DNA of 64,000 nucleotides from Ophelia neglecta. Lineage: Eukaryota. The notes beneath the pieces were generated by a model. That model saw only the letters and a program-made list of their open reading frames with translations, was not told the DNA's origin and searched no databases. The stretch's first letter is position 1. Every line of letters starts with the position of its first letter. Location of the stretch: positions 40,610,001 through 40,674,000 of the forward strand of contig OZ260661.1 of NCBI GenBank assembly GCA_965285935.1, written 5' to 3'. Shown piece after piece: positions 10,301-19,300 of this stretch. A program made the position numbers and the translations under genes.

Positions 10301-13300
10301 AATCAAATGCCAAGATAGTGGAATATCAATAGATATAAAATCCTCAGAATGACTTCAAAGAGAAAACCCTCTTGACAAAATGGAATGATCCTACCAGTAA
10401 CCCATAGTTCCTGCTAAGGAAACCTTTATCTTGTAGTAGAGCCATATTTTAACCAAAAGACTTATAGAATACACTTCCTCCACTATTTTTATCAAGGTGA
10501 TTGATATAAAAAAGCCTCTGTGAAATTATCAACAGTTGTCTTTTGCAGGGTCATTTTATTGACAAAATTGTTTCAACACTGCAGGAGATGCTTTGAATGC
10601 CGAGGCATCCAACAATTGGGCTTATAATACACCTCCCCTCCCCCTCCCACATTCACCCCTTTACAAAATATTTGATAATAACATTACCATTGCTGACACC
10701 CTCATCTCACCCTCTGACCACCCCATCTAACCCATCTCCCACCACAACCCCACATTCACCCATCAAGACATCTGGTTAAACTGAAGACACACTTTTCTGA
10801 AACTTATGAATAATATTCACATGTTAACCATGGAGGTTCTGACTTGTGTTACAGAATCCGTCATTCGCGCTTTTCAAACTTTTTTCATAGATGCCAACTG
10901 CAAGCAGGCATGTTTGAGCAGCATAACCACAGCTATGCACAAAGATGTCTTTGAAAGCTTTCTATTTACTAAGTATGGTGGAGACATAAGATAAGGCACA
11001 CAAGGGGAGGGGGTCTTGTCTACATGTGTACGTGTAGCTACATGGTAGGTGTACAAGGGTCACCTGAAAAAGGAGGGTGTCTTTACTTCCCTCCATACCA
11101 TATTGCTCACTTCGCCAACATTCACAGTTAGACCTACTGTTGATATTTCAACATTTTTAAAGCCCCAATGCAGACCACAGCATGACAAAAAGTGGTGTCC
11201 TCTCTGCCTGGTAAGCATTTAATTAGCACTAGTACACTCACTACATGAACTCTCATCAGAGGAAGTGCCCCCTGTTGGCTGTTCTCTGGTTTATAGTCTG
11301 TGGTGCTGACCCCTGTGTTTGTAAAGGTCAATCACTTTAGGTTAACGTCATTCTGCTGCTCATGAAATACTACAGCATACAAGAGGCACCACCACTTACT
11401 ATAAATACTAGCACATTACTATTATGAATTTATTCAATTGCCAATCTGAACAGACCAGCATTGCACAGTTAATAAAACTGTGCAATACTTACAACTTTTT
11501 GTGGATTACTAAAAGTTTTTCATAAGAACCTTACCTTCTCCTGCCTGTCTCTTTGCCTGTGACACTGGATTTTCGTATTGGGTTTTTCTATTGACATGGC
11601 TGTAAACAATCAACATGACTTATCAGTTATGGCTGGTACATCTCAAATAGCTTGGTAAATTTCAAACTTAGTGGTCTTGCTTTGAGTACAAAATCATGTT
11701 AAATATTTAGGTGTGTACTTACTCTATGAAATATGTCCCATAGTGAGGATCCTCTACCTTTTCCCATCCATATGGCAGTTCTGCAAGACAAACATTTATG
11801 AGATGGATTGTTTCAATATACATACTTATGCATGTGGTCAATGGTTCAATTAATTATACACATATTGTATATAATTTCTCTTCAAAGCCACCCTAACCTT
11901 TTTATATACAAGTCAGTTAATAATAAAGAAAATGTTACACAAGCTGTGAGCAAGAGATATGATATTAATATCAAATATCCAATCCTAAAAGAATGGTGAA
12001 CATAATTAATATTGCAAGTAGTGTGTAAAGGGTACAGAGAAATATCCCCTCAGGCTGGAACAAACACAAACACAGGCTAAACCTAATTCATTTGTAATAT
12101 AATAGATGACTTGAATTATTAAACCTACAATAGAAGAAATGATCAAATGTGTGTGTAAAATTGGATGTTATTTTTGAACAAGCAGAATTTAGGAACAGGA
12201 AACTGTGTCTTCCCTTATCAAAACAACTTCTACTGAGAAACTTGGACTGAGGCTACCACCTAACCAATGTCACTCTTTCCAAGTCATTGTTTTTCATTGA
12301 CCGAGACTAAGAAGGATATCAACTGGACCAGTAATTTGTGGCCATTCCACCACCATTCAACAGGAGAGTTTGAAGCAGATCAGAGGGTGCCGACATTATA
12401 GTGGTTGTCAGATGTCTGGCGGCTGGCCAATGGGAGGGTACAAGAGGGTTAAACCTGTCTCACTTGACAATGGAAGCATCCCAGGGGACGGGGCAATAGG
12501 ACCTGGATTGATGGCTTAATGTCAATCCTACCTGCAGGTCACACTACCTTCTTAACAGGTATCAAAGGACAATATACTACATCTACCATATCTACAAGCA
12601 TTCTTGACCACAAGCCCTGGGCTTGTAAATAACACAGATACCATCACTGTAATCAGCCCAGTCATATAACGATCAACATTACTGACTACGCATAAAACGC
12701 ATAAAACGCATAAAACATTAAATGAGAATGCTGATGAACCGGGTAACTTTATAACCCTTGTGATATATACATTACATAGTACAATACTCTACATACGGGC
12801 TTCCAGGCCAAGATGTTCCGTGTTAAGATCATGATATTGTCCATAGCCATACTCCATATATCTGTTTGAATACACCTCTGACATTTTGGGTTGGGTACCA
12901 ACTACAGTATTAAAATCTGGATTGCTGGCATACTCATGTGGTATTCCTTCTTCATATCCCTGGCTTTCCTCATACCAATGTACCCTAGAGGGCATTTTGA
13001 ACACAAAACCTTTTGTCGAAGAAATCATGGCAAATTGCAATATCCTAATAAGTACATGCACAAACTTTCTCTATGGATGCTAGCAGCAATTTGTGACTTC
13101 TGACATGAAATACAGCCATCTTGTTGGCATAACTTCATTATCCTAAATCATGAAAGAATATTTCTATAAAGGCCATTGAATCCTCTCCTTGAATATGTAA
13201 GTTCCATAGTGCAAAAATAAATTATATAGATCTCTGTATAAGTCTCTCCTATGTTGTAACCAAATTAACACCTCAACTTCAACCAACAGATATATCAACT

Positions 13301-16300: not shown

Positions 16301-19300
16301 ATCTCATTTATGAGAATGTCTTTTTTGCCAAAAGATCAGCCAATGCCACATCCTAGGGAAGAACACGAGGCTTAATCAGAAACCAGGAAAATTGGCTTGT
16401 CCAATTGGGAGTTCTCATGAGTTAACTCAGTCAAAAATATCATACGTTACCTGTGGCTAAATGCTTTGAAGAAAACCAACATAGATGTCACTGGCTCCTA
16501 ACGTATAGCCTGCAGAATTCAATATATTAAATTATCTCTTTTTAAGTTAGTGCACAGGCAGATAGCATGAGGGTTCAAATTTTCATTTGACAATAAAAAG
16601 CTATGAATGCAGAACTTAAAAGGGGGTTTGGATCTCAGAGGGGACTGAAGCTGGTGGCACTTTTAGGGAAGGAGACAGGAATCCTTGAACCAGAAAATGA
16701 GAAGTTGCCCTACAACTGAAAGCACCATGGAATCTGGCAGGAAAAGCAATGACAGGGGATTGCTTTGTGGGGAAACCTAGATAGAATCCAAGGTTACCAG
16801 ACTCCATCTCATTTGAGTGCTGCCCCTTTTTATCCTACATTTATGTTCACAGTTGGGTTCAGTTAAGTTGGAGGTTTTCCTGAATGAGATACGGGCTTGC
16901 ATTGGCACATGTCACAATAGACAAGGCTGATGTTTTCATATATTCCCTGATAACCCTTCTCAATATAGTCAGATTTTCATGAAAATGACATGCTATTGGC
17001 TCCGTACACATTTTTCAGGAGACTGCATTTCTTTTACTCTGCCCTTGTTATAGTTATAACTTAAAGTTAAAATTCAAACCAGGAAACCTTTTAAATTTGA
17101 TGTTTCCTCAATGTTGACCTTTGTGACAATGAAAGTTGGTCAAGACAACAGGGCCAGTTGGAGATGACACCCCTAGTACTAGGCCTAGCCCAGTGACTAA
17201 TCTAGCAGGGGACAGCACTGCATGTCACTAGACCATTACTGTGCCACTGCCATCAGGCTTTAAGGGGAGACAAGTAGTTGCTGGTTAGCAATGTGCAACA
17301 TGTCCTACTGGCCCTACTATTTAACTTTTCTGAGCTCCAGACCAAAAAAATGGTCGAGACAGAAAGGACATCAGCTTTATTTTTTTAAAGTTATTGGGCA
17401 GCCAAAAATAAAGGCTTGACAAGCACTTTGCATCTAGTGTGCAAAACTACTTTTTTCACATTTTGTATTTTATGAAGAACTCCTTGGGTCTTTATAATTA
17501 CAATTAAATTATATATCTGGCTTTTTTGCACTGCATCTGCTAAAACTGCCCTGGCTTTTTATGGCAAAAACAGTACACTGGACAACCATCTGGCAACAAA
17601 AAAGAAGCCGTTTCAAGAAGTAAGACACTCAAAATGTTTGTGTGCACTGATTAAAGTAAAAAGGCTTTACACATTGTTCAAGAGTGTTTAATAAGGCACA
17701 CTATAACATGTGACTGGTCTATGGCAGTGCAATTAAGTAGCTATAGATCTTCCTATACAGGACACAGAAGTACAGGAATCACCTGCTCTTCTATATTGGA
17801 GACAATGGTCCAAGACATGAAACAAGAGAGCCAATTCATCATTCCTAAAAGAAAACTGATTTAATTTGCTTCTAAAGCAAAATAATTCCATTTGGATTCT
17901 CACTAACATAGAAGTCATCTGTAACTTGATCACATTCCAAACGTCTTGTTTGTTATCGAATGCACAGTAAAAGAAAAGCTAAATTCAAGGAAAATTGAAA
18001 ACTTTTCAAGCAGGATAGATGACTATGAAAGGTTTTGCTATTGAATGCGGACAACACAGTAGGCCCTACAGTGAAGAGATTCAGATCAATCATCCCCATC
18101 TCATATATTTAGGGAGGCATGTCTTTCAATCATGCTACAACTTTTTATTCCCATTTCTTTTTCGATATCACTGTGACCTGGTACTTACCACCACATCTTG
18201 TTATCTTTATATCCTCAGCACAATCTGTACATTTACAGTAGAAGGTCACATCTTCTTTGTCACTTTTGACATGATTCTCTTTCCTCCCATTCTCATCAAT
18301 TTTGTCAGCCAGACAGTTGGTAGAATTGGTCTTTTTGTCAGTGGTACCAGTTTTGTCTCCATTACATTTCTTTCCACTGTCTGAATCCTCCCCTGCATCT
18401 GAGTCACATAAATCTTTGAATGCCACTTTCTTTTTCCTTTGGTCCTTTCCAGTAGCAGAATGTTTTGATGTACTCCTGCTAGTTTGATCAGACTCGGTGA
18501 CTATTTCACCTTTCATTTTTCTACCATGTCACTTGCCATATATGTACATGTACCATACAGTTGCAGTCAAATTGGTGTGATGAAATAAGATAGGTTTACG
18601 CGAATAACACTTTCTTGTAAATGAGATATAAACCACTGTATTTTTTTATACTATGATTTATCTGCTGCCTCTGTTCCCATCACAAGTCTCCTTCACAGTT
18701 ATCACCTGTTATCAATGAATAAGAACCAAAAGAGTATCATATCCTACTGGCTCATTGTACATGTGACTGTCGTAATTCTGTTACTCCAATGACCTAATTC
18801 CTTTAACCCTGGGATATCATTCAACAATTCACAGAGCTAGTTGCCAAATCCAAATATATTCTTACACTCCTTAACTCCTCCAGCTAGCATGTTGGTCTTT
18901 TGGTAACATGTTCAATACACAACATTTGCTTCTTTTAGCCAATCCTTTCAAACTCATGGTGAACATAGTAGTGTGTATAAAACTGTTTAGGACACATACT
19001 AGATGATGGTATAATGCTGTCTTGCCACAAAATCATCCCATTTTGCAGTGATACATCACATGATAAGACAATTGACTTTCCTATAATCTATCTGCTATAT
19101 CCAATCTTACAATCTATAAACTCTGGCCAATCCAGTTTCACACCATCAAGACAGATCACCGTTTACAAAAGCAAGTTGATTCTGCCACCGAGTTTTGGAT
19201 TTCATCCTCCAAAGTATCCCACTGCTACCAAAACAACACTTAAAGACAGACCTACAAGTGCACTGGGTAATCTTGTAGTCTGTGGGGCAAAACACTGACT

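What the first reader, a model, noticed from the sequence alone, without database searches (positions are those of the whole stretch)
12975..18445. Both heads that splice into WW2 carry PP1-docking RVxF/W motifs
Seen: the 18516 exon encodes [14 protein letters not shown] (KKVAF, basic upstream and acidic downstream), and the 12995 exon begins [10 protein letters not shown] (RVHW followed by acidic residues). Established: [RK]x0-1[VI]x[FW] in disordered context is the main PP1 catalytic-subunit docking motif, and Drosophila Magi associates with the RASSF8-ASPP complex, where ASPP is a PP1-binding protein. Inference: two otherwise unrelated first exons may each turn a GuK/WW1-less MAGI into a direct PP1-targeting subunit at junctions or synapses. 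The 45790 head has a looser variant (KGLKW). Short motifs do arise by chance, so conservation is the deciding test.
Basis: partly seen in the sequence, partly recalled or inferred. Interest (0 to 1): 0.7.

Follow-up and report, generated by a model that had tools for sequence, protein, structure and literature searches.

The report
Short MAGI isoform with PP1 dock
In an invertebrate's MAGI cell-junction scaffold gene, one likely alternative first exon, whose cysteine-rich end recurs in molluscs and a brachiopod, carries a short motif predicted to dock the phosphatase PP1, while the second proposed exon and its motif have no outside support.

Summary
Both motifs are at the stated places, in the WW1-WW2 intron of a minus-strand lophotrochozoan MAGI gene, and both frames end in donors in phase with the WW2 exon. 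The two heads are not equal.

Head A (ATG 18516) is likely a real first exon. It has a TATA+Inr pair upstream, a consensus donor, and a Cys-rich end in junction register with 17 database WW2-first MAGI heads. Its KKVAF fits the refined PP1 consensus (shuffle P 0.004). A complex model puts exactly these residues in PP1's RVxF groove (0.71 against best control 0.09), possibly from memory of solved complexes. But an internal RVxF occurs in only 2 of 14 orthologous heads (freshwater snails); the conserved part is the Cys-rich end.

Head B (12995) has no homologue and no promoter pair, and its RVHW fails the refined consensus. The 45790 head's KGLKW is no match.

Verdict: partly supported. One WW1-less MAGI isoform plausibly docks PP1 directly (about 0.45); both heads doing so about 0.1. 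No close relative was available, so the deciding conservation test is still open.

The parts
18643..18650 (-). TATA-like box upstream of head A
   Evidence: one of 4 TATA+Inr pairs among 110 minus-strand TATA boxes in 164 kb; consensus patterns recalled
18619..18624 (-). Inr-like element, predicted transcription start about 18622
   Evidence: 28 nt from the TATA box
18513..18556 (-). four upstream ATGs in head A's leader (18556, 18549, 18539, 18527), all closed by stops; one stop overlaps the head A ATG
18189..18516 (-). head A: likely alternative first coding exon, 109 codons + 1 base, phase-1 donor at 18188
   Evidence: single copy in the genome
18418..18432 (-). KKVAF, RVxF-type PP1 docking motif, aa 29-33 of head A
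18190..18237 (-). Cys-rich end of head A, in register with orthologous WW2-first heads
12797..12995 (-). head B: candidate first exon, 66 codons + 1 base (77 from ATG 13028), phase-1 donor at 12796; unconfirmed
   Evidence: single copy
12975..12986 (-). RVHW, loose RVxF match only
11723..11780 (-). WW2 first-half exon (phase-1 acceptor shared by WW1b, head A and head B)
11535..11599 (-). WW2 second-half exon
26048..26130 (-). WW1 second-half and linker exon (skipped by head A/B isoforms)
28916..29225 (-). GuK end to WW1 first-half exon
34506..34625 (-). GuK exon
44593..45790 (-). head C: long open frame with a phase-1 donor at 44592 compatible with the GuK exon; KGLKW (45518-45532) is not an RVxF match
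   Evidence: TATA+Inr pair at 46143
19229..19279 (-). competing Cys-rich 17-codon stretch with a fair acceptor and a weak donor, no ATG; probably chance, possibly a micro-exon

Best explanation
Head A is likely a first exon with its own promoter that splices into WW2, giving a short MAGI without PDZ0, GuK and WW1, whose KKVAF is predicted to bind the RVxF groove of PP1, while head B's motif is probably incidental. Shown: the frame, the splice phase, the promoter-like pair, the register match to orthologous heads and the motif. Inferred: removing WW1 and the linker breaks the WW tandem, which would weaken high-affinity PY-motif binding and the indirect RASSF8-ASPP-PP1 route; the RVxF would then tether PP1 directly to the PDZ-bound partners of the scaffold. 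The lineage-wide conserved part of the head is its Cys-rich end, of unknown role; the RVxF would be a lineage-restricted addition, also seen in freshwater snails.
For: Exon reality: ATG, 109 open codons and consensus phase-1 donor; one of only 4 ATG-to-donor candidates in the 14-kb intron under my donor pattern; TATA+Inr pair upstream, with the same pattern hitting head C blind; 17 of 32 distinct WW2-first heads among 375 MAGI-like proteins end in a Cys-rich strand, and head A's last 18 residues rank 2 of 300 phase-1 donor-adjacent 18-mers in the intron against their profile. Motif: fits [KR][KR][VI]{FIMYDP}[FW] (consensus in PMC6363451 and PMC12723162), shuffle P 0.0043; loose matches are rare in MAGI itself, 1 in 16 full-length lophotrochozoan proteins. 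KTVNF followed by K-D/E sits in the orthologous head of two snail genera. Complex model: score 0.71, best of 3 controls 0.09, runs agree in at least 19% of contacts, partner pLDDT at least 33; the mark was reached by 51 of 78 solved and 2 of 108 mismatched microbial pairs, and by 39 of 65 solved and 2 of 126 unrelated eukaryotic pairs; confident contacts are only head A 29-34 on PP1 166-169, 242-243, 261, 288-292, the valine site listed in PMC3387161. Tandem dependence on the linker: PMC6744271. WW domains needed for RASSF8: PMC4830575.
Against: Internal RVxF in only 2 of 14 orthologous heads; the best 9-mer similarity of head A to the snail heads is not significant (33 and 125 of 500 shuffles) and does not fall on the motif. 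KKVAF fails the more restrictive five- and six-residue patterns. The loose motif occurs at random in about 25% of proteins (PMC4794898) and in 65 of 555 local open frames. The model pass may be memory of solved RVxF complexes, used a stand-in PP1, is uncalibrated for disordered chains, and shows no second confident patch. A competing Cys-rich stretch at 19283 outscores head A on the profile (11.0 against 8.6), and 4 of 6438 positions over 164 kb reach head A's score. Head A lacks the MV[LV] start shared by 13 of the 14 orthologues and has four upstream ATGs in its predicted leader. No direct homologue of head A was found.
Confidence: 0.45

Rival explanations
1. Head A is a real first exon, but KKVAF is a chance match in a lysine-rich disordered stretch. 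The isoform's point is the loss of WW1 plus the conserved Cys-rich strand, which may pack on WW2, bind a metal or be lipid-modified for membrane anchoring (all three untested).
For: The Cys-rich end is kept in 17 of 32 WW2-first heads, the internal RVxF in 2; 7 of 14 orthologues have no loose match anywhere in the head; local background for the loose motif is about 12%.
Against: Refined-consensus shuffle P 0.0043; a similar motif in the same exon of two snail genera; model pass. The AlphaFold2 model of an orthologue gave only a short low-confidence strand before WW2, so the packing idea has no support yet.
Confidence: 0.35
2. One reading: both heads are expressed and each independently docks PP1.
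For: Both motifs are present; joint shuffle probability about 0.0007-0.002; head B has an open frame, A at -3 of the ATG and a phase-1 donor; ASPP2's RVKF shows that a four-residue match can be the working motif (PMC6377682).
Against: Head B: 10 hits among 1.84 billion representatives, none MAGI, the top three inspected being unrelated repeat proteins; end score -28.9 on the orthologue profile; no TATA+Inr pair; codon score reached by 11-14% of background frames; fails the refined consensus; 0 of 13 other WW2-first heads carry the motif.
Confidence: 0.1
3. Head A is not a productive coding exon: it is intronic chance, or it is transcribed but blocked by upstream ATGs, and the true orthologue of the Cys head is the 19283 stretch or has been lost.
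For: The 19283 stretch scores higher on the profile; four upstream ATGs; 3 of 4 listed variants in head A change the amino acid; codon score reached by 7% of background frames.
Against: The 19283 stretch has a stop 7 codons upstream, no ATG and a weak donor; head A combines promoter pair, ATG, long frame, consensus donor and Cys register.
Confidence: 0.1

Closest known systems
MAGI family (MAGUK with inverted arrangement; vertebrate MAGI1-3/S-SCAM, Drosophila Magi)
   Same: Full PDZ0-GuK-WW-WW-PDZ gene mapped exon by exon. N-terminally shortened vertebrate MAGI2 forms from alternative starts are mentioned in PMC8428372 (passages); Drosophila Magi lacks GuK (PMC4830575).
   Different: Drosophila Magi keeps both WW domains; here the predicted isoform starts between WW1 and WW2. 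No RVxF is described for MAGI in the papers found.
Predicted WW2-first MAGI isoforms of molluscs and Lingula (RefSeq/GenBank/Logan models, e.g. P0002, P0081, P0155, P0224, P0327, P0237, P0366)
   Same: Same junction, same phase position, Cys-rich end in register.
   Different: Most start MV[LV] and lack an internal RVxF; only the two snail genera have one.
MAGI-RASSF-ASPP-PP1 junction module
   Same: PP1 is brought to MAGI-organised junctions (PMC7954791, PMC6377682, PMC4830575; passages).
   Different: There the RVxF is on ASPP and the link is indirect; here it would be on the scaffold itself and isoform-specific.
RVxF-type PP1 targeting subunits, including PDZ scaffolds such as spinophilin/neurabin
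   Same: RVxF in a low-complexity region of a scaffold; modelled in the same groove.
   Different: Spinophilin adds a second PP1 motif (PMC6377682); none is evident here, and binding is untested.

Membership tests
MAGI gene | PDZ0, GuK, two WW and several PDZ domains in order | tested here: met
   lophotrochozoan clade in the tree
Alternative first exon (head A) | ATG, open frame and donor in phase with the WW2 exon | tested here: met
Alternative first exon (head A) | core-promoter signals upstream | tested here: met
   TATA+Inr pair; consensus recalled, pattern fixed after seeing this case
Alternative first exon (head A) | orthologous exon in other species | tested here: met
   Cys-rich end in register; moderate strength, one competing stretch scores higher
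Alternative first exon (head B) | ATG, open frame and donor in phase | tested here: met
Alternative first exon (head B) | promoter signals or an orthologue | tested here: not met
   no close relative was in the sets searched, so absence is weak
Alternative first exon (both heads) | spliced transcript observed | not testable with these tools
   see Tried and rejected
RVxF-type PP1 targeting subunit | loose consensus [RK]x0-1[VI]{P}[FW] | tested here: met
   both heads; consensus from PMC4794898
RVxF-type PP1 targeting subunit (head A) | refined consensus [KR][KR][VI]{FIMYDP}[FW] | tested here: met
   consensus from PMC6363451, PMC12723162
RVxF-type PP1 targeting subunit (head B) | refined consensus [KR][KR][VI]{FIMYDP}[FW] | tested here: not met
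RVxF-type PP1 targeting subunit | most restrictive six-residue consensus of PMC4794898 | tested here: not met
   neither head; this is a screening filter that some true regulators also miss
RVxF-type PP1 targeting subunit (head A) | motif in a disordered, accessible region | tested here: inconclusive
   13% hydrophobic residues, 44 of 109 charged; partner pLDDT 33-39; no disorder predictor run
RVxF-type PP1 targeting subunit (head A) | motif is a conserved island | tested here: inconclusive
   2 of 14 distant orthologues; no close relative, nearest tree path 1.18 changes per column
RVxF-type PP1 targeting subunit (head A) | motif fits the PP1 groove in a model | tested here: met
   0.71 against 0.09; may reflect likeness to solved complexes
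RVxF-type PP1 targeting subunit (head B) | motif fits the PP1 groove in a model | not tested
RVxF-type PP1 targeting subunit | motif-dependent binding to PP1 | not testable with these tools
   needs pull-down or calorimetry

The most novel reading that the evidence does not exclude
An internal promoter, shared across lophotrochozoans, makes a WW1-less MAGI whose head is a direct PP1-recruiting module, with the docking motif turning over in position: inside the Cys-rich end in Lingula and several bivalves (K[VI]xF in 5 of 14 heads), and upstream in this animal and freshwater snails, which lack the terminal match. Promoter choice would switch MAGI from indirect (RASSF8-ASPP) to direct PP1 targeting, and this animal would have gained a second such head.
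Probability: 0.12. Interest if true: 0.72.

Novelty: new variant of a known kind. Interest (0 to 1): 0.42.

Why it matters
MAGI is known to reach PP1 only through ASPP in the papers found. An isoform that drops the WW tandem and binds PP1 itself would be a promoter-level switch in how a junction scaffold controls local dephosphorylation, and it can be tested with one peptide and two mutations. Separately, the Cys-ended WW2-first head is shared by a brachiopod, cephalopods, bivalves and gastropods in database models and did not turn up in the paper searches. It deserves a look whatever the PP1 result.

Tried and rejected
RNA evidence: no RNA holder listed. The three runs offered are one sample and behave as DNA contigs, with no splice joints; this says nothing on expression. 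Their variants are too few to test selection: head A 3 amino-acid-changing and 1 silent among those shown, with 74 further variants in the stretch not shown; head B 1 changing and 1 silent; WW2b 2 silent; none of those shown is in either motif.

Direct homologue searches: head A, near lengths, 2 candidates, none scoring; atlas, no usable hit for head A or the cephalopod Cys end; head B against representatives, 10 non-MAGI hits. Pfam found nothing on heads A, B or C.

AlphaFold2 of cephalopod isoform P0081 with a 14-row alignment: head pLDDT 36-55, inconclusive on packing against WW2; no fold search was run on it.

Rejected: KGLKW as an RVxF; heads as repeat or duplicated DNA (one match each); the 19283 stretch as a first exon (no ATG); a strong donor near 19458 as its coding partner (stop in the needed phase, read). 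Earlier findings of this scan: none returned. The primary Drosophila Magi-RASSF8 paper was not held. No supplements were read.
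Full report
Setting. The window holds most of a minus-strand MAGI gene. Pfam, motif scans and tblastn place the GuK, WW1, WW2 and PDZ exons, and ten flanking genome stretches complete it from PDZ0 to the last PDZ. A tree of 34 MAGI rows puts it among lophotrochozoans (support 99), outside the sampled molluscs and nemerteans, weakly beside Owenia and Lingula (81). 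The nearest row is 1.18 changes per column away (some row names recalled from truncated labels). No close relative was available, which limits every conservation test below.

Observation. Head A runs 109 codons from ATG 18516 to a consensus phase-1 donor at 18188; head B runs 66 codons from ATG 12995 (77 from ATG 13028) to a phase-1 donor at 12796. Both fit the WW2 acceptor at 11780. They are 2 of only 4 ATG-to-donor candidates of 15-200 codons in that intron under my donor pattern. KGLKW in the 45790 frame matches no pattern, and that frame's donor suits the GuK exon instead.

Chance. Shuffles give the loose motif in 5.0% of head A and 1.4% (4.4%) of head B permutations. The refined consensus (PMC6363451, PMC12723162; passages) is met by head A with P 0.0043 and missed by head B. 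Neither meets the most restrictive pattern of PMC4794898. Locally, 65 of 555 open frames carry the loose motif, as do 3 of 18 other minus-strand and 0 of 10 plus-strand ATG-to-donor stretches. The pair is thus unusual (about 0.1-1.4%) but was chosen after the fact.

Is head A an exon? Of 434 proteins collected, 375 match a WW2 pattern and 42 start at WW2, giving 32 distinct heads. Seventeen end in a Cys-rich strand in fixed register with the junction, 2 are fragments starting in the linker, and 13 are other heads. I built a profile from 14 of the 17, dropping P0018, P0179 and P0399 as near-duplicates. They come from Lingula, a cephalopod, nine bivalves, an abalone and two freshwater snails (several species names recalled from accessions or truncated labels). 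Head A's last 18 residues score 8.6, rank 2 of 300 donor-adjacent 18-mers in the intron, and 4 of 6438 over 164 kb reach that score; head B scores -28.9. The one better stretch (19283, score 11.0) has no ATG, a stop 7 codons upstream and a weak donor. A TATA+Inr pair (recalled consensus) lies upstream of head A. Only 4 of 110 minus-strand and 0 of 128 plus-strand TATA boxes have such a pair, and one of the four lies upstream of head C, found blind; head B has none. By my arithmetic about two pairs are expected by chance in this much DNA, so the signal is their position, not their number. Against: four closed upstream ATGs in the leader, and no MV[LV] start. I put head A at about 0.85 real and head B at about 0.4.

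Is the motif conserved? Mostly not. An internal RVxF occurs in 2 of the 14 heads, both snails (KTVNF, then K and D/E); stand-alone models of the exon from two Biomphalaria species keep it too. It aligns by eye and by MAFFT with KKVAF, but the best 9-mer similarity is not significant and lies elsewhere, so common descent and convergence cannot be told apart. Five more heads have K[VI]xF inside the Cys-rich end, and seven have no match. None of the 13 other heads carries the motif. Loose matches are otherwise rare in MAGI: 1 in 16 full-length proteins. Head B has no homologue among the WW2-first heads or the 1.84 billion representatives.

Model. The genome encodes PP1. A stand-in PP1 from a metagenome contig, 100% identical over 79 residues and 92% over two further exons, was folded with the whole of head A. 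Score 0.71, best of 3 controls 0.09; runs agree in at least 19% of contacts; partner pLDDT at least 33. The mark was reached by 51 of 78 solved and 2 of 108 mismatched microbial pairs, and by 39 of 65 solved and 2 of 126 unrelated eukaryotic pairs; disordered chains are untested. Out of 109 residues only 29-34 make confident contacts, with V31 on I169, L243, L289 and C291, the valine site given in PMC3387161 (passages). This shows a fit to a textbook groove and may come from memory; it does not show binding.

Mechanism. Shown: signals for an internal start that skips PDZ0, GuK and WW1. From the literature (passages only): the WW tandem of MAGI2/3 depends on the inter-domain linker for high-affinity binding (PMC6744271); Drosophila Magi needs its WW domains for RASSF8 and recruits RASSF8-ASPP (PMC4830575); ASPP binds PP1 through RVxF (PMC6377682), and this route matters at MAGI-organised junctions (PMC7954791). 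Inferred: the short isoform loses that route and, in this animal, may regain PP1 directly through head A. Tissue and substrates are unknown.

Novelty. A search for MAGI, RVxF and PP1 returned 2 papers, both placing the motif on ASPP. Listings for MAGI1 with PPP1CA, isoform-specific RVxF, MAGI palmitoylation and invertebrate short isoforms showed nothing on point by title or abstract start. A MAGI review has no mention of PP1 (PMC8428372). The library lacks most subscription papers, and no supplements were read. The isoform class already exists as database models. The PP1 link would be a new variant of two known kinds: N-terminally shortened MAGI and RVxF targeting subunit.

Verdict. Observation confirmed, interpretation partly supported: head A about 0.45 for direct PP1 docking, both heads about 0.1. 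Interest 0.42.

Noticed in passing
window 44593-46143 (minus): Head C is a 399-codon open stretch with its own TATA+Inr pair and a phase-1 donor fitting the GuK exon; a nemertean-clade cluster member (P0342) also has an alternative head before GuK. Likely a third MAGI start.
   Followed up: partly
window 18190-18237 and orthologues P0002, P0081, P0155, P0224, P0327, P0237: Cys-rich strand conserved in register directly before WW2 across brachiopod and molluscs; role unknown (WW2 packing, metal site or lipid anchor).
   Followed up: partly
P0155, P0187, P0193 heads: Oyster heads carry a basic-spacer-LxL stretch near the N-terminus that resembles a MAP kinase docking motif (resemblance recalled, not tested).
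   Followed up: no
window 18513-18556 (minus): Four upstream ATGs in head A's leader, one with its stop overlapping the head A ATG; the runs carry a 2-base insertion near 18537 that by hand reading does not open the frame.
   Followed up: partly
window 19229-19279 and about 19458 (minus): A 51-base phase-symmetric Cys-rich stretch with a fair acceptor, and a consensus donor about 180 bases upstream; could be a micro-exon or a non-coding exon.
   Followed up: partly
window about 6530-6655 (minus): Probable internal exon between WW2 and PDZ1, not picked up by tblastn.
   Followed up: no
G000:C8:83514549-83514638 and 83534494-83534583; G000:C9:33077038-33094863: Two identical divergent PP1-like N-terminal exons 20 kb apart, and a tandem cluster of about eight distant phosphatase-like frames.
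   Followed up: no
flanks: about 101.6-103.9 kb and -20 to -25 kb in window coordinates (L008-L013, L006-L007 region): Neighbouring coding exons resembling a purple acid phosphatase upstream and a TAF3-like gene downstream (names recalled, not tested).
   Followed up: no
P0368, P0369, P0372: In snail annotations the orthologous head exon is sometimes called as a separate gene under unrelated names (kinase, dynein), which hides this isoform from searches.
   Followed up: partly
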